DNA of 64,000 bases from a virus (Duplodnaviria; Caudoviricetes), in the IMG/VR virus record IMGVR_UViG_3300014039_000013, positions 64,001 through 128,000 of that record. The stretch is one strand, 5' to 3'. Each line of letters opens with the position of its first letter. Position 1 is the stretch's first letter. The translations under genes were made by a program, and so were the position numbers. Shown here one piece after another: positions 4,610-59,900 of the stretch. The notes under the pieces were generated by a model. The model searched no databases and had not been told where the DNA came from. It saw only the letters and a list, made by a program, of their open reading frames with translations.

Positions 4610-5155
4610 TTACCTTCCCTTTTGTAAATCATAAAGTATTACTGTGTTATTATTAATAGACTTCTTCACATCAATAATTCTTTGATTTGAACTACCTCTC
4701 CAATAAAGATTTAAATCCTTTCGTTCTTCTATAAATTTACCATCAATGAGTACATCTATATAATTAAGAACCTCGGGTTCATTTTTTAATATATCTTCAT
4801 AAAGATATCCAGTCCATAACCATACTGGTTTGTTAGAAGCCTTACACATTTTCAATAATATTCTAACATTAGAAATACTATCTGCTATATAATCACTATC
4901 GAAGTTTAAATCATCCTTCATTATCCAATATAAAGGATCACCTCCTAATATAGAGATACCATCAATTTTTGGATTATCCACACATCTCTGAATTTTATCA
5001 GCAACGTCTATAAAATTAACTCCTGCTAATGGATTCCAAGTCTGAGGAGACCAGCATCCTTTACAACGGTTATTACATCCTGCTAACCAGATACTGCATC
5101 TAATTCCAGGGCCATTAACAACATCATATTGTTGATACTTTAGTATTTTAAGCAT
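4610..5155 (-). CDS. nrdG: Anaerobic ribonucleotide reductase activase (radical SAM)
   Basis: DVVNGPGIR, CNNRCKGC, GGDP, DVLIDGKF, RGSSNQR; adjacent to nrdD. Confidence 0.95.
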   Translation of the reverse strand: MLKILKYQQYDVVNGPGIRCSIWLAGCNNRCKGCWSPQTWNPLAGVNFIDVADKIQRCVDNPKIDGISILGGDPLYWIMKDDLNFDSDYIADSISNVRILLKMCKASNKPVWLWTGYLYEDILKNEPEVLNYIDVLIDGKFIEERKDLNLYWRGSSNQRIIDVKKSINNNTVILYDLQKGR

Positions 5156-5447: not shown

Positions 5448-5454
5448 AAGTATA

Positions 5455-5484
5455 TAAAAATAGCCAGATTTTACTCTGGCTATT
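5455..5484 (-). terminator. Intrinsic terminator after nrdD
   Basis: ATAGCCAGA-TTTTAC-TCTGGCTAT hairpin with a T-run on the minus strand. Confidence 0.65.
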
Positions 5485-5490
5485 ATTTTA

Positions 5491-8400
5491 TTAAAAATGT
5501 TTTACGCGATTATTTATGTCTGCTATTCTTCCTTTAGAAATACCATTAGTTAGAATACCAATATCATTTATACCCCACCTTTCAGTGTATTTATTTTATT
5601 ATTAAAATAAATTTCTATATTATTTTTTTCTATATCCGAAAGCTTACTAATTTCAGATTGAATTACTTTGTCATTTTCTTTAAATCTAAATTCTTTTTGA
5701 AAATAAACTTCACATAAATAACGTAAATATACAGCTTCTTCTTTTTTATTAAATTGCTTAAAGTAATATCTTACATTTTTATATCTAAAGTCTATTTTCC
5801 ATTTAGAATTAGATTTAATTTGAATAACTCCTCGAAATCCTGATTTATTATTTTTACATTTATCCATATTTAACTGGTTGTCTTCTTTATTTATAATACG
5901 TAAATTAGATTTACGATTATCTAAAGAATTTCCATTAATGTGATCTATTTCTTTATTTACAGGATTTCCCATTATCAATCTATGAAAATATTCTTTTTGT
6001 GATATTTGATTACCTGTAACCAGATATGGTTTTTCACCATTATCTTTTAATATGGTTCTCCATTTAAATTTTTTAGCTTCTTCTAAATTATCTTTATCAA
6101 ATATATATGTAAATAATACATTTCCGTGTTGGTCATATGTATCTATTTCACAATAATTGTCTAATACTCGTATTTCATTTGGATCAAATACACCTCTTGA
6201 ATTTGTGTCTAAATTATGTCCAAATTTTATAAACTGATGCATATGTTTTTTTACATAAAAACATATTAAATTTTTTACTGTAATTGACAATTTTTTCATC
6301 TGAAGATATTCCACAAATATCACAAAATTTAGTAGTTTTTCGCATATAAATATAGTTTAAATTAGTAATAAGGGATTAGACTATACCTTCATCTAAATTA
6401 GATGCGCCTTGGTAGTCGTTGAGAGCTTCCCAGTAACTATATAAATATACGTATATAATTTGGGATTCCAAAATTATATTAACATTTAGTTAATAGGCTA
6501 TCTCTGCTGATTGTCCAATTTTCTTAATTTTTTAACATTCAAGCTTATTCTTTACAAATTACTTTGTAGTTTAAGAAACTTTAGGAGTTTCCAGCATATT
6601 CAGCGTTTTCTATATATATCACTATATAAAGGGGCATATTAGTTTACCCGCATAACCTGCGTTCTGCATACAATTTATGTCTATCGGTCTCTCCACAATT
6701 AGGACAACTAAGATTACCTTGATTATCCATATGAATTTCTCCTTCATAGCCACAAGTATAACATACATCGCACGAAGTGGTATTTAACTCACAGTACATC
6801 ATATTATCATAAATACATTTCATAATATTTAGTACTGCTTCTGGGTTTTTACGTATATCTGGCATTTCGCAATAACTTATACACAATTTTTACTTTTTAA
6901 TTTATTAACTACATACTCTTTTATAGATAAAAACTGAGATTTTTTAATTTTATTTTTAATAATTTTTTCTTTTTTCTTTTGTTCAGAAGTATTTTGAAAC
7001 TCTTTAAATAATATTTTCTCAGCAATATATCTAGCACATACAGCTTCTTCTATTGTATACCATCTACATAAATGTATTCTACTTTTACCAAATCGAATTT
7101 CTGCTGCCCATTGATTTCTTGATTTATCTAAATATACACCAATGTAATTAGAAGTATTATTAGACATAAATGTCTTATTGCAAACATTTTCAAATTGTTT
7201 ACAAATACGTAGATTAGACCTACAATTATTTAAAGGATTACTATCAATATGGTCAACAACCTCATCATCTTTCGGATTTAATAATATTCTGTGAAGCCAT
7301 GTTGTTGGATTTGTTTTTGTACAATTTCCTGTAACAATGTATCCTTTTGAACTTAGTCTCCATTTTTTATATTTAATTAAATCTATATCAGATTTATCTA
7401 TTATAAATTCTGTAACCTTTTCATTTCTTTGATTATATACATTAAATATTGCAATATCATTTTTAATAATATAATCATTAAAATCATTAGTTGTTCTAGG
7501 ATTATTGTCTAGAGGTTTACCATATTTATGTATTTGATGCATATGTTTAGAGCATACATCTTTATATCCTTTTAAAGTATATACTTTTGTATTTTTTCTA
7601 TTACATATACTACATGTGCCTATTTTTATTGTATGTGACATAAATTAAAAATTAAAATTAGACTATATCTTCTTAGTAGCGGAATCCGCCTTTTAAGCTG
7701 TGCGCTTGGAATAGGTAATCACTTCCTATCCTACAGGGTTACACTCATCACCCTTAGTCGTTACACCTTCAAGAATTAAAAAATTCAAGCTTGGCACGGT
7801 ATTATCAAAAAGACTTCACCGTTAGCTATTTATAAAAATAACACCCTTGATTAAAAGTTCACACAGTTTTAGGAAGCTGTATTACCAACCTCCTGATGAA
7901 TATTCTTGAAAAGGAGCTTCAAATTCTATCTTTGAATACCCATCAATCTTATATTCTACAGGTATATGATAGCTATTAGTTATATAATCTCTATCATTAA
8001 CATGTTTTTCTATAGGAAATTGTTTTAAAGCATTAGCAAATTTAGTAACAGTGGCTTCTGCAGGAGTACCATATAAAGATAATGCTAAATGATACTTTTC
8101 TTTATTTAAATTAGTTCTATCATACATATGTTTTAATATATCAAGACCTAATTGTTGTCCTTCTTTAGTGCCGTACTCTTTACCAAAATGATAAACACAT
8201 TCTGCAATACCCATATAACCTATAGATGCAGAACAATATTCATCTTTAATAGCTTCACCTATTTTACTTCCTACAGGTAATCTTGCAAAAGCCCCATAAT
8301 TCCAAAGTATAGGAGCTACATCTGTATTTACATTAGATATTTGATTAAATATCTTATTTTGTTCAGAGGAAATCTTATCAATTATATCATCTAACTTATT

Positions 8401-11400
8401 TAAAAAATCATTATAATCTTTTGATTCTAATGCTAGATAAGGTAAATTGATAGAAATTACACCAATGTTTACAATCGATCTCTTATTACTAAGAGGATTA
8501 GACTATCTCTTCATTGTTATTTTCAACAATGCTGTGCACTTCGGATAGTGATAAATTCTATCCTACTGGCTTACACTCATCAGCCATAGTCGTTACACTT
8601 CTAAAATGTTCTAAATTTTTAATATTACCATAATCCAGAACTTCATATCTTTTATTAAACCATTGTCTAATAAACCAACGTTTAATAGAACCATTTTTAG
8701 AAGAATGTCCATCGTATTCAATAAATTTAGATAAAGGGCAAAAAGTTAGCACTGCGTTATTATTTTCTTTATCTTTAACAGTAATATACTTTATACTGCT
8801 TATTTTATGACCATTATTATAACAATCTTTTATATTATCTTTTTGATCACCTATGTGTAAATTTTCAACTCTATTATCTAAAGAGTTATCATTAATATGG
8901 TTAACTTGTTCTCCTTCTTTTAATGGCCTCATCCATACTTCTGCAATAATTCTATGCAATGCAATATGTTGTTGTTTATGTGTAGTTTTATTAAGAATGT
9001 CTATATATTTATACATTTTATTTCTTGTTTTTCTACACATTGGTTTTAATAAAGTTTTTGAATAAACAGAATATACATCACCTAATTTATTTACATAATA
9101 CCAAGTGTCTCTAAACTATTTAAATTCTTGTTCATTAATAATTATAGTATTCATACTCAAAAATATTTTTGTAGTTTATAATTTTAAAAGCACGGTATTG
9201 ACCCATATAGGTTTTCACCGTTAGCAAGCAATTAAGCTCACACCGTTTTTTCTTACGTTCACACAGTTTAATGACGGCTAAACGATTTGGTCAACCGTCC
9301 CCAGAATTTATACTTACCATCTTTATCTTTCCAAGGATGAAGGAAACTTCTGCACATTTAATCATTTGTCGCCAAATGAACTGACTATATATTCTACATT
9401 TATGATGTAGTCTCCTGTTTCGAGTTTGTGCTTATCTCAAACTCTACTGGCTTACACTCATCAGCCATAGTCGATACACATTTAGGAATATTTTATTCCA
9501 TTTAGCACGGTCTCATCTTATTTAAAAGACCTAACCGTTAGCCCTTAAAGGACACCTCTAAGCGAGTTAAGGAGATTTTACATGGGCTACATATTTCACT
9601 TACCCATGCTTGGAAAGACATTTCCTTCTTTATATTTCTTCATAATCTTAGCTGAAATATAATCAGGAACCATTCTTTTGCATGTACATTCTGCTGCCAA
9701 CTTAGTTACATCATAGTATTTAGTTCCAGGATTTATATTATCTTCATCAAGAACATAGATGAGTTTCAATTTGTTAATCAATATGTTTCCATATTGTTCA
9801 GACTATCTCTTCAATGTGTGGCGCTTCGTAATTAGGGGTTTCACCTAAAAACTACTTCCGTTTCAGGAATAGTCGTTACACTTCTTCTTTATATTTCCAA
9901 ATATATCCGTATGCTGATTTTGCTTTTCCATTACAACAAGCACTTATATTACTGTTTGCTTTTGGATTGCTTGTTAAATCTTTCGTTATAAGCCATTTTG
10001 TAGCTTCGGTCATACTTTTAAATTCTTGTAGGAATTTATTACTTAAATCATACTGTTGTATAGCTTTCCATAAATGAAGTTTTGGTTTTTTAAATTGAGC
10101 CATCATGTTATCACTTACTTTTCTATCATTAAATGACCACTCGTATTGAATATTATATGATGTAGTACACCATTCTAGATTTTTTACATCATTATTTAAC
10201 GGATTACTATCTTTACGATTTATTACTTCATAATTATTTGGATTAGGAATAAAAGCAAAAGCCACAAGTCTATGAACTAAAAATTTGCGAGTTTTATTAT
10301 TAATTCTTAAATCTACACATTCATAACCTTTATTGTTTATATAAGATTTTAAGATTTTTTCTTTTATTTTATAATATCTATCATGTCCAGTATCATAAAC
10401 TAATCTTGATAAAGATTTAATTTTACCTGATTTACTCACAGCATAATTTTCAGTTATTCCAGTTAAAACTTTAAACTTTTCTTCCATATATAAATATTTA
10501 GCACGGTATTATCAGCTATCTATATTATAGACCTTAGATTCTCTTAGTCAGTATATTCGTGAATTATTTATTTTCCCTTATTTCCACTGATACCGTTAGC
10601 ATTAATTAATTAACACACCCTGTATTTACAGGTTCACCACATTTTACTTCCCCAAACAGTTTTAGGGAAGGCTGGATTAATGATATTTCCATTAGGACCC
10701 TTCATTCCTTTAATCCTTTGATTAAATATTTCTTTTATAAGAGCTACATTCTCTTTAGCATAATTATCATTCTCATGTATATAACAGAATACAGAGCAAA
10801 ATGGGCTTTGCACGCCCTCTATATGTTACCATATAGTTTAGACTATCTCTTCACCCTCATCATTACATGTTAGGGGTAAGGCGCTTCGTAATTAGGGGTT
10901 TCACCTAAAAACTACTTCCGTTTCAGGAATAGTCGTTACACTTTCTCTATTATTTATAGAGCTTAGCACGGTATTAACTACATATTTATATTTTTCTAAT
11001 ATATTATCATATATTTTTGGAGCTTTTATATATTGAATAATATGTTTTTCTCCATATCTAAATTTATGATTAAACAAAGAATCTTTTTCTTCTACAACAT
11101 GTACGAATACTTTCTAATTTAAATCTAGTTAACCTCGAAGCTGATTCAAGATCTTTATATTTCTTATTTTCAGTAAAATCAAGTATATAGTTTACATTTC
11201 GTTCACTTATAGGAAGGTTTACAATAACAGGTTTATCGTTTTCTAAATATCTATATATGTTTATAAGCAGAGTGTCTATCTCCTCTTGCTGATGCGCATA
11301 TTTTTGTTACTCCTGATGCACCTAATCCTAAATGAATACTGGCTTCTGTAGCACTATCAAATATTTCTCCAGTTGTTATGTCAATAATAGGTTTAGAAGA

Positions 11401-13963
11401 TGGACTTAATTTACCTTTTTTACCATACATATGATTTTTACTGCCAAGTTGTGCTTCACCTATTTTCTTTTTGGTTTCTTTAGAATGTTTACCTGTTGAA
11501 TTTCCACCATTTTCTATATTATATCCAATATTATGATCCTGTGTATTAAATTCTAAAATATATTTTGTTTCTAATATATTCATTTCTTCTTGAGTTTCTA
11601 TATTATCTACTAATATTTCAAATTCAAAGTTTTCAAAATCATATTTTTTTATTGCTTTTATAATAGGTCTAGATGTGTCTGGAGATTTAAATTTAGTATC
11701 AGATTTATAATTTCGTATTCTGTCTTTTAATTTCTAAGTTGTTTGTCCAATATAAATTTTATTGTTGATTTTATTAGTAATTTTATAAATTAACATAGTC
11801 TTCACCGTTAGCATTAATAATTAAGTTATCAATGTAAATGTATGAAATTTATGGTCAATATCAAAATTATTAACACACCCTGCATTTACAGGTTCACCTT
11901 ATAATAATCTTATAAATTACTTTATAAGACGGCCAAATTGACCATTCGTACTTGTCATTGAGTTAAGTTGATAAAGTAATGTTTGCATACTATCAACTAT
12001 TTCTTTATTCAGAAACTTGTTTACAAGCTTATTTTTTTCATTTGGAGATAAATCCTTAAATTGCTCTTCGTAATATTCTTTACTACTGCGAACAAATGGT
12101 GCTAAATGAGCTAAAGTAATACTTACTCCCACCAAAATATAATTTGTATCTTATATAATGGCAGACTATTTCTTACAGAAATTTGTATTTTTCTGTGGAC
12201 ACGTTTCCATTAAATTTTAATTTAATGTACTCTCTTTCGAGATAGTCGTTACAATTATATTAATTTATCAATAACTTTAATATTATATTTTTCAGGATTG
12301 TCTATATATCGTCTAGCTTGTGTTTCAGATTTACCTATAAATCTAGCGTAAGCAGCTATAGTTTTAAATATATATTTATTATTATAAATAATTGTCCATC
12401 TATTAGGAGTTCCTATATTTTTCTGTCTTTTTAATTTATTATATGCGTGTAAATTATTATAAGATTGAGAAACCCATTCAAGATTAGAAGCATCATTATT
12501 CTGAACATTTCCATCTTTATGATTTATAGTATTATTAATTTCACTATATCCATCACAAAAATTAAATCCAACTAATCGTGCTACTTGAAGATTTTCTTTT
12601 TTATCATTATTACATAAAGTTACATAAAATCTATTAGATTTTTGATTAGGGCTTAATGTTAATAAATAAAATTTGTTATAACTTATAGCAAAATGTTTAA
12701 CTCTACCTTTATTAGAAATTTCATAACCATCATACCCTAATATGGGTTTCCAGATTTCTCCTTCTATAGGTTCTATATTATAAAGTCTAGAACTTTTTTC
12801 TATCTTATCATTTATAATATTATTATGTTTTTTAGATAACTTTTCTCTATATTCTTCTACAGCACTTATTAAATCATTATCTAATTTATAAGTATACAAT
12901 AACTTAGAATAAGGTATATTAATTTCTTTAGAAATATCTTTTAAAGAAATATTATTTTTTAATCTTGATATTATTAGATTTTTATACTTATTTATAAATT
13001 TCTTGTTAGATGGAGTTATTCTTTTAACTTTTAATTTTTCAAATTCCCAATCTTTTAATTGTAGTCCTAATTTCTTTCTATTTAATTTTAATAAATTACT
13101 GATATATACTGTACTTTTGCCTTCTTTACAGTATAATTGATATATAGTATCTTTTAATTCTAATATTTTGTTATTCATAGCATTCCACTATTTAAAATTA
13201 ATATAATCACGAGATTTAAATATTCCATTTATCCCTCGTTAGCTTTGAAACTTAATTCAAAACCCTTATTAGGTTAGTGTCCTTTTAATACGGCAGATTA
13301 AAATGGGAAACCGTATTGGCTCGAACTTACGGCAACAAGTATTTGAGTTGCAATGGTTGTAGCCGTTCTTAGTGAATGAGGCTTTTCGATGAGTTTGCCA
13401 TTAATAACTGTTCCATTTTGAAGCATATCTTCTAAGTTAATTAATGAGCAGTTGCTCATTCCATGCATAAATCTATAATCTGTATCATGAATATGGATTG
13501 CACCTTTTTCATGTAATTTAAGTAGTTCTTTGTTACACTCTAATTCTTTATATAGCTTCTTGCAAACTTCTCCAGCTACTAAATCGCGCATTACATTAAA
13601 TTGTTTAGGATTTTTATTTCCATTTTCATTAGTAACCTTGTTAGTTTTTCCAGAAACTATTTCTTCAATAGTAGTATTAAACTTATTAGAATCAGCTATA
13701 TTCCTAGCAAGTTTATGCTTATATCTATAAAGAATATACTCTTTTGCTACTTGTTGATAATCATAATTCATAAGTAGCTCTTCTATCTGATCTTGTATTT
13801 CTTCAATACTCATCTTATCCCAAATATAAACAGAATTATATATATCTTCTATAACAGTGCTATTAATATCTATTTTACACTGTTTAAAAGCTCTATACAA
13901 AGCTGTTTTGATTCTATTGGGATCAAATTCCTGTAAATTACCTTTTCTATCTGTAACTTTCAT
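5491..13963 (-). CDS. nrdD: Class III anaerobic ribonucleotide reductase in 8 exons (13310-13963, 11941-12129, 10664-10810, 9602-9766, 9294-9354, 7888-8471, 6646-6883, 5491-5564); 703 aa spliced
   Basis: N-terminal ATP-cone. Junctions restore QYG|GVS, NG|QSPF, AFP|KLIY, MG|CRSFL, GRL|NIGVISINLP, SGG|CISY and RRLCG|YIG. Every 5' exon ends in U, every intron ends in G, and the total length is a multiple of 3. Confidence 0.92.
5565..6645 (-). mobile_element. nrdD group I intron 7, inserted immediately after the glycyl-radical Gly codon
   Basis: TGC GGG T|AT ATT GGT junction; core motifs TGCTGGAAAC, AATCAGCAG, CAACGACTA, GGTATAGTCTA. Confidence 0.85.
5568..6345 (-). pseudogene. HNH-AP2 homing endonuclease (intron 7) with an apparent +1 frameshift in an A7 run
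   Basis: The true start MRKTTKFCDICG...FLCKK joins HMHQ only if one A is removed at 6246-6252; the intron 6 paralog reads CSKHMHQ. Confidence 0.7.
6877..7641 (-). CDS. HNH-AP2 homing endonuclease (intron 6)
   Basis: LHRILL..VDHIDSNPLNNCRSNLR; NNTSNYIGVY...W.AEI...EEAVCAR (AP2-like). Confidence 0.88.
   Translation of the reverse strand: MSHTIKIGTCSICNRKNTKVYTLKGYKDVCSKHMHQIHKYGKPLDNNPRTTNDFNDYIIKNDIAIFNVYNQRNEKVTEFIIDKSDIDLIKYKKWRLSSKGYIVTGNCTKTNPTTWLHRILLNPKDDEVVDHIDSNPLNNCRSNLRICKQFENVCNKTFMSNNTSNYIGVYLDKSRNQWAAEIRFGKSRIHLCRWYTIEEAVCARYIAEKILFKEFQNTSEQKKKEKIIKNKIKKSQFLSIKEYVVNKLKSKNCV
6884..7887 (-). mobile_element. nrdD group I intron 6
   Basis: GGT|TGT junction. The ribozyme core lies in the 5' ~240 nt; the ORF lies in the 3' part and runs across the 3' splice site. 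Confidence 0.82.
8472..9293 (-). mobile_element. nrdD group I intron 5
   Basis: CGG T|TA AAC junction; core motifs as in introns 2-4. Confidence 0.85.
8498..9154 (-). CDS. HNH homing endonuclease (intron 5), TAG-recoded
   Basis: MNTIIINEQEFK*FRDTWYYVNKLGDVYS is in frame with track ORF 8558-9040 (LHRIIAE, VNHINDNSLDNRVENL). A second TAG at 8558 reads on to TAA at 8498. Confidence 0.8.
9355..9601 (-). mobile_element. nrdD group I intron 4 (247 nt, no ORF)
   Basis: Separates MG from CRSFL. Core motifs GCTAACGGTTAGG, ACCGTGCTAA, ATCGACTA, ATATAGTCAG. Confidence 0.85.
9767..10663 (-). mobile_element. nrdD group I intron 3
   Basis: U|...G boundaries; core shares 64 identical nt with intron 2. 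Confidence 0.85.
9876..10487 (-). CDS. NUMOD4-HNH-NUMOD1 homing endonuclease (intron 3)
   Basis: YAVSKSGKIKS, VHRLVA, INRKDSNPLNNDVKNLEW (catalytic His replaced by Arg), IQQYDL..EFKS, AYGYIWKY. Confidence 0.85.
   Translation of the reverse strand: MEEKFKVLTGITENYAVSKSGKIKSLSRLVYDTGHDRYYKIKEKILKSYINNKGYECVDLRINNKTRKFLVHRLVAFAFIPNPNNYEVINRKDSNPLNNDVKNLEWCTTSYNIQYEWSFNDRKVSDNMMAQFKKPKLHLWKAIQQYDLSNKFLQEFKSMTEATKWLITKDLTSNPKANSNISACCNGKAKSAYGYIWKYKEEV
10811..11940 (-). mobile_element. nrdD group I intron 2
   Basis: U|...G boundaries; core motifs GCTAACGGTGAA, AATACCGTGCTAA, GTAACGACTA, GAGATAGTCTA. Confidence 0.85.
11233..11796 (-). CDS. GIY-YIG/NUMOD3 homing endonuclease (intron 2), TAG at codon 21; 3' part apparently frameshifted
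   Basis: MLIYKITNKINNKIYIGQTT*KLKDR is in frame with track ORF 11251-11583 (GYNIENGG, HSKETKKKI). Coding-like sequence continues in shifted frames toward ~10900. Confidence 0.8.
12130..13309 (-). mobile_element. nrdD group I intron 1
   Basis: U|...G boundaries, group I core-like motifs (GTAACGACTA, AAATAGTCT), internal HNH ORF. Confidence 0.85.
12255..13178 (-). CDS. NUMOD4-HNH homing endonuclease (intron 1)
   Basis: EIWKPILGYDGYEISNKGRVK; INHKDGNVQNNDASNLEWV. Confidence 0.88.
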   Translation of the reverse strand: MNNKILELKDTIYQLYCKEGKSTVYISNLLKLNRKKLGLQLKDWEFEKLKVKRITPSNKKFINKYKNLIISRLKNNISLKDISKEINIPYSKLLYTYKLDNDLISAVEEYREKLSKKHNNIINDKIEKSSRLYNIEPIEGEIWKPILGYDGYEISNKGRVKHFAISYNKFYLLTLSPNQKSNRFYVTLCNNDKKENLQVARLVGFNFCDGYSEINNTINHKDGNVQNNDASNLEWVSQSYNNLHAYNKLKRQKNIGTPNRWTIIYNNKYIFKTIAAYARFIGKSETQARRYIDNPEKYNIKVIDKLI

Positions 13964-33553: not shown

Positions 33554-33814
33554 TTATTTATCTTGATTATTTTCATATCTTTCTGACCAAGCTTTGGTAA
33601 TACCAGCTGAAGTAAATATTGCTGCTACTGCTGCAATATAAGCTGCAATACCATCTAAATTAGTAGCAATAGTATGATTGTAAATTACTTCAACAATTAA
33701 TATAATTGCAGGTATAATAAGTAAAATACAACCTATAATAGTTACTATTACTAAAAAGAAGTTTTTTGAGCTAACTCCTGTATTATTTTTAATTAATTTT
33801 CCTATATAACACAT
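33554..33814 (-). CDS. Two-TM membrane protein, holin candidate
   Basis: Two hydrophobic helices and a charged C-terminus; upstream of the amidase. Confidence 0.5.
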   Translation of the reverse strand: MCYIGKLIKNNTGVSSKNFFLVIVTIIGCILLIIPAIILIVEVIYNHTIATNLDGIAAYIAAVAAIFTSAGITKAWSERYENNQDK

Positions 33815-33816
33815 AG

Positions 33817-33889
33817 TGATTTATTTGGGACTCGAACCCAAGACTCTCACATTAAAAGTGTGATACTCTACCAACTGAGTTAATAAATC
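33817..33889 (-). tRNA. tRNA-Lys(TTT)
   Basis: Cloverleaf; TCACA-CTTTTAA-TGTGA. Confidence 0.85.
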
Positions 33890-33979
33890 AAAGGAGTTTA
33901 TCTACTCAGATTATAACTGAGATAGATATTTTAGAAGATTATTATTCTATTTGCTAGATTATAGAAAATTAAAATATTG

Positions 33980-56918: not shown

Positions 56919-59900
56919 ATAAATCAAACATATAATTTATAATAACATCAATTTCGTCATCTGTAAAATTTTGATCTTTTAATTTATTTTTTAAATAATC
57001 TTCTGTTTTAAAATTATGTCCGTGTGATTTTTCATTTGCTTCATTAAACATATCTTGTAATGGTAATGACTCTATATTTTTATTTTTTAATAAAGTAGCA
57101 TAATTCTATGCATCTTCATTTATCACGCCTTTATGTAATTTACGTTTTAACGATCGATACCCTACCATACCAAGACCTCCTAACATACCAAGACCAAAAC
57201 CAATAGTTGGCGTCATAATTGCTGCGTTCACAAAATTATTTTTTAAATTACTTGTATTATGTATTCCACTAAGATATAAATTTCTCCAAGTATTTGATTG
57301 TCTTGATAATATATTTTGCGCAGACTAAACGTCATATGATGGGAAATATAAGCCAGTAGAAGGTTCGGTTGCTTTAGATTGATAATTTCTCAATAATTCT
57401 TGAAATTCTTGGGAATAATTTGGTGAAGTGAATAGTTTTACTCTATCAATGACCTAATCATTAGATTTTGTGTGTGCTATTGTTGGTATATCCCACTTAT
57501 TAGAAAATGTTAAACCTACTTCTGGTGTCCAACCTTTCTATATTAAATATTTAGTTGGATCATTCTAAATATCTAGCATGCCAACATAAGACCCACCATA
57601 TGCCCCTACGCCTCTATTTGTTGCCATAGATCTCCATAATCCTAAATTACTTGATTGTGATGCATTAAAAACACTTTTTGGATCTGAATAATATTCAGAT
57701 CCAAAATTGTTTTTATTAGTAACACGTTTTACTTGATCCACAAATTCATTTAATGTTAAATTGTCATCATATGACAATCTACCAATACGAACGGAACGGA
57801 ATGGGAAATTATCACCAAATGCTGTAATACCACCACTAGTGTGATTCTGTCCTACACCAGAACCAGTTCCACCTCCATACTAAATATTTTCAGTAAACCC
57901 TCTTAATAATTCTTCATTTGTTAAATCTCTGCCAACATATGGAGAATATCTACCTTGTGCTCGTAATCCATAAAAATTATTCATATAATATACATCAAAT
58001 ATATTCTACATTTGTTTTGGATTTTTAGCAATTTCATTTATTTGGTTTTCTGTAAAATATTGTTTTGCTGAATTTTCATTTATAACTTCTTGTAAAAATT
58101 TTTTATTAGCTTCAACGTCATCAAATCCTGTAATTTGTGCAGACGGACGTTTCCATGTTGAGCCAAATAAAGATTTTCCTTTTGTTAGAATTGCAGATTC
58201 AATAGCAGACTACTGTTCTGGCATGGTTAATAAATTATAAGCTCTATATCCTTGTTTCGCGTTTGCTGGATTTTGTGCACTTAAGTTTGCGCCCATAAAT
58301 AAAACATCAGACAAATGAACTTTTGCAACATTATCTCCTTGTCTAAGTTCCTAAAATAACTATTCAGCAGATACTGGAAGAGGTATATCGTAAGTAGTAA
58401 TTTCGTTTAATTCATTAGCTTTATATAACCTATTTGCTTCTTCTGGATGTAATACAGAATATATCTAATGTGCTAGTTTACCAACGGCCTATCCATTTTC
58501 GTTTTCTTGAATTATATCAAAATCAACGCCATTTGTGTTGCCCTGGGCAAATTCAGAAACTCCTTTTTCATCGCCAAGACCATTTGTTCCAGTTTGCTAA
58601 AAATGTATATTAGATTTTGCTTTATTTAATCTAGCAGCAGTAGTTATAATTTCTGTATCATTATTAACTTGGTTTTGAATAAAGCCCCTTCCGACACCAA
58701 CAGTTGATCCTGTAACTAGCCCCTCACCATTTAAGGTTTTATTCAGGCTACTTTCGTAATTTCTAACAGCTTTTATGATTTCTGGATTTGAAAATCTTGA
58801 CTAATATAATCTTCTAGTTATTTTTGTGGATATAGTTATCGGTTTATCTTTTACAAGTAAAAAATTATAAGGAGCTTCCCCTATTTTTAATTCAATATTC
58901 TAGAGATTTTCTGGAGTTTGTAACATAACTGCACCACCACTTACATTACTTGTAGTATTTCCAAATTTTACTTCAAAATTTGGTACAACCATATCAACAT
59001 ACACTGGCTCTGGTTGTTTATTAAATTCTGGATGATGTAATATTTCCTGTTCTGATTTATATAAATCAGGAAATAAAATTTTCTTTTCGTCATCTTTAGA
59101 AAAATAACCATCAGAATATTTTTTGTCTCTTAAACGAGTAGTTAGATTATTCCAAGATTTTTTAGGTCCATACTAAAATAAATATCTCATATTAGTCCAT
59201 CTTTCAGGGATTACATTTTCACCAAGCCACTATCCAGCTTTTTTAGCTGTATTATATACACCCTTATATGTTTTACTAGGAATACCAAAAAACGGTGTTG
59301 CCGCCAATGCAAAATTGGCAACCGCCGCAGCCTTTCCGTCATTTATATTAAATGCGTGTTTTAATTGATCCCATCCTTCTGCTGTATAATAACTAAACTA
59401 CGCACCATTAGCAGCTGCTCCCCAACCCGTGTTTGCAAACAAAAGAGGATACTTATATCCTTGCGTCATTAAAGATGGTGTGGTTCTTGTAAATAAAGTT
59501 TCTGCCAATGTTCCTAAATTAGTATTTGGTAAAACTCTATCAACTAAAAACTATGTTCCTTTTTGTGCAGCATTTGTTGCTTGACCAAGACCAAATCCAC
59601 CTAATGCAAATTCAGCAGCAACTGGAGCTGTTGCTACCGCTGCGAGACCCAATGCTGCTGCATCACCACCTTGTCTCATATCATCTCTAACTTGTTGTAT
59701 AGCATCCTTATGTGCAACAGTTGCTCTCTAGCTACTTTGAGTAAAATTTTCAGCTTTATCCCAAAGATTATTTTTATCTATCCACTATGTTAAAAATGGA
59801 GATCTCTATACATTTGGAACTATAACTTTATAACCATTGTTTTTGTCAACAAGTTGCAACTTACCATCTTGATTAGTTAAAAACGTGTATCCATATTTTA

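What the first reader, a model, noticed from the sequence alone, without database searches (positions are those of the whole stretch)
5491..13963. nrdD broken by seven group I introns at its catalytic motifs
Seen: 2.1 kb of coding sequence spread over 8.5 kb, with a 61-nt exon. Insertions fall immediately before the catalytic Cys (MG|CRS) and immediately after the glycyl-radical Gly (CG|Y). Six introns carry endonuclease ORFs of three kinds (NUMOD4-HNH, GIY-YIG, HNH-AP2). Established: phage nrd genes are intron hot spots, but seven in one gene is at the extreme end of what I know.
Basis: partly seen in the sequence, partly recalled or inferred. Interest (0 to 1): 0.7.

Follow-up and report, generated by a model that had tools for sequence, protein, structure and literature searches.

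The report
Seven group I introns in nrdD
A gut phage's anaerobic ribonucleotide reductase gene (nrdD) is cut into eight pieces by seven self-splicing-type (group I) introns, six of them carrying their own mobility nuclease. This is an extreme but not new example of the intron overload already described for this kind of phage.

Summary
On the minus strand, eight exons (13963-5491) join into a stop-free 2112-nt frame of 703 aa. It aligns without gaps, at 86.5% identity, to an uninterrupted 703-aa nrdD in a related phage contig. All seven intervening sequences have group I hallmarks:
- the 5' exon ends in U and the intron ends in G;
- one contiguous guide sequence pairs with both exon ends (P1 and P10);
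- the P3, P4 and P7 helices are present.

I1-I6 share the architecture of the T4 sunY (nrdD) intron, with P7.1 and P7.2. I7 is a different type. Six introns carry HNH or GIY-YIG endonuclease genes. Insertion sites sit in the most conserved motifs, including directly before the radical Cys and just after the radical Gly. Relatives carry 0-3 introns at the same sites, and one intron is 99.7% identical between phages whose exons are 86-89% identical.

Caveats:
- No intron reaches Rfam's curated score, but neither do the experimentally proven Twort nrdE introns.
- I3 lacks the P8 hairpin.
- Splicing itself was not shown.

Dense introns in large recoded gut phages are already published, so this is a new member of a known kind.

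The parts
13310..13963 (-). nrdD exon 1 (aa 1-218: ATP-cone plus the start of the NRDD domain)
   Evidence: Pfam ATP-cone 2.4e-17 and NRDD profile positions 1-104; junction fixed by the intact homologue.
12130..13309 (-). Intron I1 (1180 nt), sunY-type group I; endonuclease ORF in the P6 loop
   Evidence: P1 8 bp plus P10 3 bp; P3 GGACAC/GUGUCC, P4, P7, P7.1, P7.2, P8 and P9; the L043 copy shows a compensatory P3 change. No RF00028 hit.
12255..13178 (-). I1 homing endonuclease, 307 aa, NUMOD4 + HNH_3
   Evidence: Pfam NUMOD4 41.5 bits and HNH_3 27.0 bits.
11941..12129 (-). nrdD exon 2 (aa 219-281)
   Evidence: Pfam NRDD profile positions 107-156.
10811..11940 (-). Intron I2 (1130 nt), sunY-type with a P2 hairpin; ORF in the P5 loop
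   Evidence: RF00028 35.1 bits, E 1.1e-6 on the 3' part; P1 5 bp plus P10 4 bp; helices.
11233..11796 (-). I2 homing endonuclease, GIY-YIG + NUMOD3, 187 aa if TAG = Gln (TAG at codon 21); frame-shifted remnants of further DNA-binding repeats lie downstream
   Evidence: Pfam GIY-YIG 34.8 bits and NUMOD3 31.4 bits with code TAG=Q; frames.
10664..10810 (-). nrdD exon 3 (aa 282-330)
   Evidence: Pfam NRDD profile positions 155-207.
9767..10663 (-). Intron I3 (897 nt), sister of I2; ORF in the P6 loop; NO P8 hairpin
   Evidence: RF00028 23.7 bits on the 3' part; P1 7 bp plus P10 4 bp; P3 UGUGGUG/CGCCACA; P8 missing.
9876..10487 (-). I3 homing endonuclease, 203 aa, NUMOD4 + HNH_3 (+ NUMOD1)
   Evidence: Pfam; the stop codon overlaps J6/7.
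9602..9766 (-). nrdD exon 4 (aa 331-385, ends ...PSMG)
   Evidence: Aligns to T4 NrdD 239-277.
9355..9601 (-). Intron I4 (247 nt, no ORF), complete sunY-type ribozyme
   Evidence: RF00028 full-length match, 19.4 bits, E 0.006; fold z-score -4.5; 60% identical to the T4 sunY core; all helices present.
9294..9354 (-). nrdD exon 5 (61 nt: CRSFLHPWKDKDGKYKFWGR plus the first base of a Leu codon); begins with the radical Cys (T4 C290)
8472..9293 (-). Intron I5 (822 nt), sunY-type; ORF in the P6 loop, overlapping P7 and P7.1
   Evidence: RF00028 28.5 bits on the 3' part; P1 6 bp plus P10 5 bp; helices.
8558..9154 (-). I5 homing endonuclease (HNH_3), 198 aa if TAG = Gln at codon 13; ends on TAG
   Evidence: Pfam HNH_3 29.8 bits; frames.
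7888..8471 (-). nrdD exon 6 (aa 406-600; first full codon = T4 Asn311)
   Evidence: Aligns to T4 NrdD 311-503; Pfam NRDD 153 bits.
6884..7887 (-). Intron I6 (1004 nt): sunY-type core in the first ~240 nt, then the ORF up to the 3' splice site
   Evidence: RF00028 20.1 bits; P1 7 bp plus P10 5 bp; 99.7% identical copy in L028; 39 nt 95% identical to Staphylococcus phage introns.
6877..7641 (-). I6 homing endonuclease, 254 aa (HNH_3 and AP2 hits both weak); the ORF ends 7 nt inside exon 7
   Evidence: Pfam HNH_3 20.3 bits and AP2 18.9 bits, both below cut-off; 33% identical to the I7 enzyme, E 2e-30.
6646..6883 (-). nrdD exon 7 (aa 601-679 plus 1 nt; zinc ribbon and ...RRLCG with the radical Gly)
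   Evidence: Aligns to T4 NrdD 505-579, the next residue being G580.
5565..6645 (-). Intron I7 (1081 nt): different type (classic P/Q/R/S elements, no P7.1/P7.2); core in the first ~290 nt, then the ORF
   Evidence: RF00028 22.9 bits full-length; P1 4 bp plus P10 8 bp; P3 and P8 covary in the L031 and L028 copies; 75% identical over 140 nt to a Staphylococcus phage CF5 intron.
5568..6299 (-). I7 homing endonuclease, 243 aa, HNH_3
   Evidence: Pfam HNH_3 29.5 bits.
5491..5564 (-). nrdD exon 8 (rest of the Tyr codon, then IGILTNGISKGRIADINNRVKHF, stop)
   Evidence: aligns to the T4 C-terminus.
4610..5155 (-). nrdG activase (radical SAM), downstream partner of nrdD
   Evidence: Pfam Fer4_12 125 bits.

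Best explanation
The region is one phage nrdD gene (class III, glycyl-radical ribonucleotide reductase) invaded by seven group I introns. Inferred mechanism: the roughly 8.5-kb primary transcript is cut and rejoined seven times by the RNA itself. In each intron a guide sequence pairs with the last 4-8 bases of the upstream exon (P1, with a U.G pair at the cut site) and with the first 3-8 bases of the downstream exon (P10). A free guanosine bound in P7 attacks the 5' splice site, and the released exon then attacks after the intron's terminal G. The result is a 2.1-kb mRNA for a 703-aa NrdD, which the NrdG encoded just downstream activates. I1-I6 are relatives of the T4 sunY (nrdD) intron: no P2 in five of them, P7.1 and P7.2 between P7 and P3', and one or two extra hairpins between P3 and P4. 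I7 is a separate type. Six introns carry homing endonuclease genes (four or five HNH, one GIY-YIG) sitting in the P5 loop (I2), the P6 loop (I1, I3, I5) or after the core (I6, I7). These enzymes presumably cut intron-less nrdD alleles in co-infecting phages, which explains why the insertions sit in the most conserved motifs. Shown here: the anatomy, the homology, the exact junctions, and presence/absence among relatives. Inferred: splicing and homing activity.
For: - The spliced frame is open (703 aa) and colinear without gaps with an intact 703-aa homologue.
- The exons cover the Pfam NRDD profile in order.
- In all seven, the exon ends in U and the intron in G. A contiguous guide sequence forms P1 plus P10, matched by only 0-14 of 2000 shuffles each.
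- P3, P4 and P7 are found in all seven. P7.1, P7.2 and P9 are found in I1-I5 (I6 has P7.1/P7.2 but no clear P9). P8 is found in six. Helix sequences differ between introns but stay complementary.
- RF00028 matches six of the seven when short pieces are searched (19-35 bits, E 1e-6 to 0.035).
- I4 aligns to the T4 sunY core at 60% identity (70% over 102 nt, E 2e-9), with compensatory changes in P1 and P7.1.
- Copies of I1 and I7 in other contigs show compensatory changes in P3 and P8.
- Relatives carry 0, 1, 2 or 3 introns at the same sites.
- I6 is 99.7% identical between phages whose flanking exons are 86-89% identical.
- Insertion sites are more conserved than the rest of the protein: 0.71 against 0.43, reached by 3 of 20000 random sets.
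- In-frame stops follow every 5' splice site within 0-10 codons.
Against: - No intron reaches Rfam's gathering score of 50 bits, and I1 gives no RF00028 hit at all. The T4 sunY core scores 101 bits.
- I3 has no P8 hairpin, a helix of the conserved core.
- I6 has no clear P9.
- No RNA data were available, so splicing is not demonstrated.
- I2, I3, I4 and I5 were found only in this genome, so they have no independent copies for covariation tests.
Confidence: 0.85

Rival explanations
1. The seven insertions are group I introns, but at least one of them, most likely I3, no longer splices. In that case nrdD is a freshly inactivated gene in this particular genome, the end stage of an uncontrolled intron invasion.
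For: I3 lacks P8, whereas its sister I2 is identical over the preceding 55 nt and keeps it. No second P8-less copy turned up in IMG/VR. The I2 endonuclease region shows frame-shifted remnants, a sign of decay. Seven serial splicing events would sharply lower the mRNA yield.
Against: All eight exons are intact and 86.5% identical to a working-looking homologue. P3 of I3 still matches its own 5' strand through changes on both sides relative to I2. P1, P10, P4, P7, P7.1, P7.2 and P9 of I3 are intact.
Confidence: 0.15
2. The gene is split by free-standing endonuclease genes, and the pieces are translated separately and assemble, as in the split nrdA of phage Aeh1.
For: Six of the seven gaps contain endonuclease genes.
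Against: Exons of 61 and 74 nt have no start codon of their own. Two junctions fall inside codons. One gap (I4) has no ORF. Every gap has ribozyme helices and a guide sequence for both exon ends.
Confidence: 0.02
3. The interruptions are inteins, or artefacts of metagenome assembly.
For: Inteins are common in phage ribonucleotide reductases and in this phage group (PMC7886860).
Against: In-frame stops follow every 5' junction and there is no Hint domain. The same introns at the same sites occur in independent assemblies from other samples.
Confidence: 0.01

Closest known systems
T4 sunY (nrdD) group I intron with I-TevII (subgroup IA2; proven self-splicing)
   Same: Same host gene family. Same core layout, read from the T4 sequence itself: P1, then UAAAA, P3, P4-P6, P7, P7.1 (loop GAUGAAUGUA), GUAG, P7.2, CGAAAC, P3', P8, AAGAUA, UAGUC. 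I4 is 60% identical to it. As in I6 and I7, the endonuclease ORF lies after the core, far from the 3' splice site.
   Different: T4 has one intron, at a different site, roughly window residue 259 inside exon 2. I1-I6 have one or two extra hairpins between P3 and P4. The ORF positions and endonuclease families differ. T4 scores 101 bits with RF00028 against 19-35 bits here.
Intron- and intein-rich Zeta-group crAss-like gut phages (Yutin et al. 2021, PMC7886860)
   Same: Genomes of 145-192 kb, TAG or TGA recoding of late genes, and 'unprecedented' intron density of up to 14 introns per genome, with an MCP gene in five fragments. This genome is 160 kb with terminal repeats, uses TAG = Gln, and has further RF00028 hits elsewhere.
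   Different: That paper found introns through endonuclease domains and did not describe nrdD or RNA structures. Seven introns in one gene exceeds its example. Membership of this genome in the Zeta group was not verified here.
Jug jumbo gut phages: nrdD split by group I introns, with RNA-read support (PMC12880540)
   Same: nrdD is fragmented in 95 of 104 genomes, into up to four fragments. Splicing is supported by metatranscriptome reads for about half of the predicted introns.
   Different: A different phage group with the standard code, and fewer interruptions per gene.
Staphylococcus phage introns (Twort orf142 and nrdE; CF5; PMBT8)
   Same: Several introns per gene: three in Twort orf142, two in Twort nrdE, and four consecutive RF00028 hits in CF5 and in PMBT8. 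The proven Twort nrdE introns also score below Rfam's cut-off (46.7 bits, and 15.8 + 23.4 bits). A PMBT8 intron-like sequence has the same two hairpins between P3 and P4, and 39 nt 95% identical to I6.
   Different: Different hosts and host genes, and at most about four clear introns in a row.
Enterocloster phage CB457P1 nrdD (OP172753)
   Same: An unannotated ~290-nt group I intron (RF00028 36.6 bits) sits at exactly the I7 site, after the first base of the Tyr codon that follows the radical Gly.
   Different: A single ORF-less intron. The deposited CDS is simply truncated at that point.

Membership tests
Group I intron | The 5' exon ends in U, which pairs with G of an internal guide sequence (P1). 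| tested here: met
   All seven: P1 of 4-8 bp starting with a U.G pair.
Group I intron | The intron ends in G (omega G), and the guide sequence also pairs with the 3' exon (P10). | tested here: met
   All seven end in G. P10 is 3-8 bp and directly adjoins P1. Shuffles reach the observed P1+P10 total in 0-14 of 2000 trials.
Group I intron | P7 formed by the conserved R and S elements (guanosine-binding helix), with P3 pairing across it. | tested here: met
   CGACUA ... AUAGUC is present in all seven. P3 is 4-7 bp in all seven and its sequences covary.
Group I intron | P4-P6 domain. | tested here: met
   P4 pairs are found in all seven, with GCUAACGG / ACCGUGC as in T4 sunY. P5, P6 or P6a were identified in I2, I4 and I6. 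The P5/P6 details of I1, I3, I5 and I7 were not worked out.
Group I intron | P8 hairpin between P3' and J8/7. | tested here: not met
   Present in I1, I2, I4, I5, I6 and I7. Absent in I3, where only CAUUG lies between P3' and J8/7.
Group I intron | Rfam RF00028 gathering score (50 bits). | tested here: not met
   Best scores are 35.1 (I2), 28.5 (I5), 23.7 (I3), 22.9 (I7), 20.1 (I6), 19.4 (I4) and none (I1). Controls: T4 sunY scores 101 bits; the proven Twort nrdE introns score 46.7 bits and 15.8 + 23.4 bits.
Group I intron | Guanosine-dependent self-splicing. | not testable with these tools
Subgroup IA2 (sunY/Twort type) | P7.1 and P7.2 hairpins between P7 and P3'. | tested here: met
   Present in I1-I6, with the same layout as T4 sunY. 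I7 lacks them and is not of this type.
NrdD (class III ribonucleotide reductase) | NRDD domain colinear over the whole protein; glycyl-radical motif RxCGY; radical Cys; C-terminal zinc ribbon; adjacent NrdG. | tested here: met
   Pfam NRDD profile positions 1-541 are covered in exon order. MGCRSF aligns to T4 C290 and RRLCGY to T4 G580, and the four zinc-ribbon Cys align. nrdG lies at 4610-5155.
HNH / GIY-YIG homing endonucleases | Pfam catalytic domain above the curated cut-off. | tested here: inconclusive
   Above cut-off: I1, I5 and I7 (HNH_3), and I2 (GIY-YIG, only with TAG = Q). Just below: I3 HNH_3 at 23.7 bits against 24.8 (its NUMOD4 hit passes). Below: I6 HNH_3 at 20.3 bits and AP2 at 18.9 bits, but the I6 enzyme is homologous to the I7 enzyme.
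Intein | An in-frame insertion with a Hint domain. | tested here: not met
   A stop codon occurs within 0-10 codons of every 5' junction, and there is no Hint hit.
Group II intron | Domain V/VI RNA and a reverse-transcriptase ORF. | tested here: not met
   The only hit is a 14.9-bit chance-level partial match. There is no RT ORF.

The most novel reading that the evidence does not exclude
I3 is a naturally P8-less group I ribozyme that still splices, with a P3 lengthened into the P1-P3 linker standing in for the missing P8 stack. More broadly, this gene would then show how far the conserved core can be trimmed in vivo and how many serial self-splicing events an essential phage mRNA can tolerate.
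Probability: 0.12. Interest if true: 0.6.

Novelty: new member of a known kind. Interest (0 to 1): 0.42.

Why it matters
Seven group I introns in one gene is, among the papers and records I could search, the highest count for a phage or bacterial protein-coding gene. The locus is a compact natural experiment:
- six related ribozymes carry unrelated endonuclease genes in three different structural positions;
- intron-less and partly occupied alleles exist in related phages;
- one intron is nearly identical across diverged phages.

It gives precise, testable junctions for annotation pipelines, which currently break such genes into fragments. The deposited Enterocloster phage nrdD is truncated for the same reason. 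The locus also raises a clear biochemical question about I3. It does not reveal a new kind of element.

Tried and rejected
- Rfam at the gathering threshold on the whole window, and at E<=10 on 9.5 kb, found no group I hit. Hits appeared only when short pieces were searched.
- I planned a covariance model of the sunY-type core, but MAFFT misaligned the variable hairpins. I used helix-by-helix checks instead.
- Exact-pattern scans of IMG/VR for a second P8-less I3 found none. A scan with the shared I2/I3 block found only an unrelated intron in another phage gene.
- I could not confirm the crAss-like or Zeta affiliation: there were no PHROG, phage-collection or PDB matches for the large late proteins, and relatives' accessions were absent from the Yutin supplements.
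- An S-like motif at window 43551 is not an intron.
- The Twort HNH hit from the DNA search is a free-standing gene, not an intron.
- Inteins, group II introns and separately translated gene pieces were considered and rejected (see rival explanations).
- A literature search for P8-less group I introns returned nothing relevant.
Full report
**What is there**

On the minus strand between 13963 and 5491 lie eight stretches that match the Pfam NRDD profile in order. I fixed the junctions by motif and joined the stretches inside a script. This gives exons of 654, 189, 147, 165, 61, 584, 238 and 74 nt. Together they make 2112 nt, 703 codons and one terminal stop. The seven gaps measure 1180, 1130, 897, 247, 822, 1004 and 1081 nt.

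**Independent proof of the junctions**

Related contigs from IMG/VR and from gut metagenomes carry the same gene.
- In L027/L036/L037 it is uninterrupted, exactly 703 aa, and aligns to my spliced product position for position. 608 of 703 residues are identical and there is no gap at any of the seven joins.
- L030, L039, L040 and L034 are also uninterrupted.
- L031 is interrupted only at the I7 site.
- L029/L043 are interrupted at the I1 and I6 sites.
- L028 (and L041 + L042) are interrupted at the I6 and I7 sites, and by a different ORF-less intron 4 nt upstream of the I4 site.

The gaps are thus discrete insertions that are present or absent among close relatives. Seven is the largest load found.

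**Are they group I introns?**

Rfam's curated threshold is not reached. The whole-window and 9.5-kb searches returned nothing. Searched as short pieces, RF00028 matches:
- I4 full-length: 19.4 bits, E 0.006
- I2: 35.1 bits, E 1e-6
- I5 3' half: 28.5 bits
- I3 3' half: 23.7 bits
- I7: 22.9 bits
- I6: 20.1 bits (all)

I1 gives no hit.

Two controls put these numbers in context. The T4 sunY core scores 101 bits. The two Twort nrdE introns, shown experimentally to self-splice (Landthaler et al. 2002, cited in PMC3984707), score only 46.7 bits and 15.8 + 23.4 bits. Sub-threshold scores are therefore normal for ORF-bearing phage nrd introns, but they are not proof on their own.

The structural evidence is stronger.
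- In all seven, the upstream exon ends in U and the intron ends in G.
- In all seven, one contiguous guide sequence pairs with the end of the 5' exon (P1, 4-8 bp, opening with a U.G pair) and, immediately adjacent, with the start of the 3' exon (P10, 3-8 bp).
- Only 0-14 of 2000 shuffles of each intron head do as well.
- All seven contain CGACUA ... AUAGUC (P7, the R and S elements), a long-range P3 and a P4.
- I1-I6 also have two hairpins (P7.1, P7.2) between P7 and P3'. All except I3 have P8, and all except I6 have a clear P9.
- The helices differ in sequence from intron to intron but stay complementary. P3, for example, reads GGACAC/GUGUCC, UAAGGUG/CGCCUUA, UGUGGUG/CGCCACA, UCUCCU/AGGAGA and CUGUGUG/CGCACAG.
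- Copies in other contigs add compensatory changes. P3 of I1 goes from G-C to A-U in L043, and P3 and P8 of I7 change on both sides in L031 and L028.

**Closest relative**

I read the T4 nrdD gene from its genome record. Its sunY intron has the same order of elements. I4 aligns to it at 60% identity over the core. It is 70% identical over the 102 nt from P7 to P7', with E 2e-9 in a pairwise search. P1 and P7.1 change on both strands.

There are two differences:
- The insertion site differs. T4's intron lies near window residue 259, inside exon 2.
- One or two small hairpins are inserted between P3 and J3/4 in I1-I6. The same insertion occurs in an unannotated intron-like sequence of Staphylococcus phage PMBT8. 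That sequence also shares 39 nt at 95% identity with I6 and scores 40.9 bits.

I7 has no P7.1/P7.2. It has textbook P (AUGCUGGAAA) and Q (AAUCAGCAG) elements and resembles an intron in Staphylococcus phage CF5. An intron of the same type sits at exactly the same site in the nrdD of the cultured Enterocloster phage CB457P1. There the deposited CDS is simply cut short.

**Where the introns sit**

Alignment to T4 NrdD places the sites as follows:
- I4 lies directly before Cys290.
- I5 lies one codon before Asn311.
- I7 lies one base after the codon of Gly580.
- I1, I2, I3 and I6 lie in the QYG|G, NG|QSPF, FP|K and GG|xISY motifs.

Local identity to four distant NrdDs is 0.71 around the seven sites, against 0.43 overall. 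Only 3 of 20000 random site sets reach this value. This is the pattern expected of homing endonuclease targets.

**The endonuclease genes**

- I1 and I3 encode NUMOD4-HNH enzymes.
- I5 encodes an HNH_3 enzyme.
- I2 encodes a GIY-YIG + NUMOD3 enzyme.
- I6 and I7 encode two homologous HNH enzymes, 33% identical. Only I6 has a weak AP2 hit.

The six enzymes are not recent copies of each other. They occupy different positions in the ribozyme:
- I2: the P5 loop.
- I1, I3, I5: the P6 loop. The I3 stop codon overlaps J6/7, and the I5 ORF covers P7 and P7.1.
- I6, I7: the 3' tail.

The I6 reading frame ends 7 nt inside exon 7, in this phage and in two relatives.

The ribozyme parts, by contrast, share blocks:
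- I2 and I3 are 100% identical over 55 nt.
- I4 and I5 are 97% identical over 36 nt.

I6 is 99.7% identical to the L028 copy, although the flanking exons are only 86-89% identical. That points to recent transfer between phages.

**Weak points**

I3 has no P8. After P3' only five bases precede J8/7, whereas its sister I2 keeps a hairpin there. I found no second P8-less copy. Either I3 is crippled and nrdD is dead in this genome, or its lengthened P3 compensates. I cannot tell which.

Splicing itself is untested.

**Context and novelty**

An earlier, unchecked note of this scan calls the genome crAss-like with TAG read as Gln. The genome's features fit the Zeta group of Yutin et al. 2021 (PMC7886860):
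- size of 160 kb;
- direct terminal repeats;
- late genes full of TAG codons;
- gut origin of the relatives;
- further RF00028 hits elsewhere in the genome.

That paper reports up to 14 introns per genome and an MCP gene in five fragments. I could not confirm the affiliation with marker proteins.

Jug gut phages have nrdD in up to four fragments, with RNA-read support for splicing (PMC12880540). Staphylococcus phages show runs of four RF00028 hits in one gene region.

The finding is therefore a real, well-delimited and unusually extreme case of a described phenomenon, not a new kind of element.

Noticed in passing
window 11734-11736 (I2 endonuclease codon 21); 9116-9118 (I5 endonuclease codon 13); 8558-8560 (I5 endonuclease stop): Two of the six intron endonuclease genes have an in-frame TAG close to their start, and the I5 gene also ends on TAG. 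The nrdD exons contain no TAG. If TAG is read as Gln only once the phage suppressor tRNA is made, these two nucleases would be produced late.
   Followed up: partly
window 6877-6883: The I6 endonuclease reading frame runs 7 nt past the 3' splice site into exon 7, and does the same in L028 and L029. It therefore cannot be translated to a stop codon from the excised intron.
   Followed up: partly
L001 4607-4890 (Enterocloster phage CB457P1, OP172753): The deposited nrdD CDS ends at ...RRTCG-LTL*. An unannotated ~290-nt group I intron (RF00028 36.6 bits) sits at the same site as I7, and the last exon (IGTHYWNYGRTEEIRDRFVHL...) follows it.
   Followed up: yes
L028 9666-9934 (also L041): Relatives carry a different ORF-less intron 4 nt upstream of the I4 site (exon ...TCC AT | G GGT TGC). 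Two unrelated introns therefore target the codons just before the radical Cys.
   Followed up: partly
genome G000 153665-153872 (+), 59678-59856 (-), 156949-157150 (+), 154079-154149 (+), 156746-156826 (+), 158570-158628 (+): The same genome has further group I intron signals outside the window: RF00028 up to 53.7 bits, and sunY-like R...S pairs. The nrdD introns are roughly half of the genome's load.
   Followed up: partly
window 10881-10935 and 9821-9875: I2 and I3 share a 55-nt block (P7, P7.1, P7.2) that is 100% identical, about 1.06 kb apart in the same gene. This suggests recent copying or gene conversion between two introns. It is also a possible assembly hazard.
   Followed up: partly
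window 10901-11306: Downstream of the I2 GIY-YIG gene, two overlapping frames encode further NUMOD1-like DNA-binding repeats (…ESIRTCCRRKR / …FNHKFRYGEK), separated by a frameshift in an A-run. This looks like a decaying C-terminal part of the endonuclease.
   Followed up: no
L009 2400-2660 minus strand (Staphylococcus phage PMBT8, record 33701-33973); L048: PMBT8 gives 18 RF00028 matches, including an unannotated intron of the same architecture as I1-I6 and a run of four or more matches between two 'hypothetical protein' fragments (record 9090-10458). Introns appear to be heavily under-annotated in this cultured phage.
   Followed up: partly
L028 8508-9665 versus 9935-10615: The nrdD of L028 is only 60% identical to the window's protein over residues 3-384, but 85% identical beyond the intron near Cys290. 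The gene is a mosaic whose breakpoint lies at an intron site.
   Followed up: no
window 5450-5485: A GC-rich hairpin (GCCAGA...UCUGGC) followed by a U-run lies directly after the nrdD stop codon and looks like an intrinsic terminator. It sits between nrdD and the small ORF that precedes nrdG.
   Followed up: no
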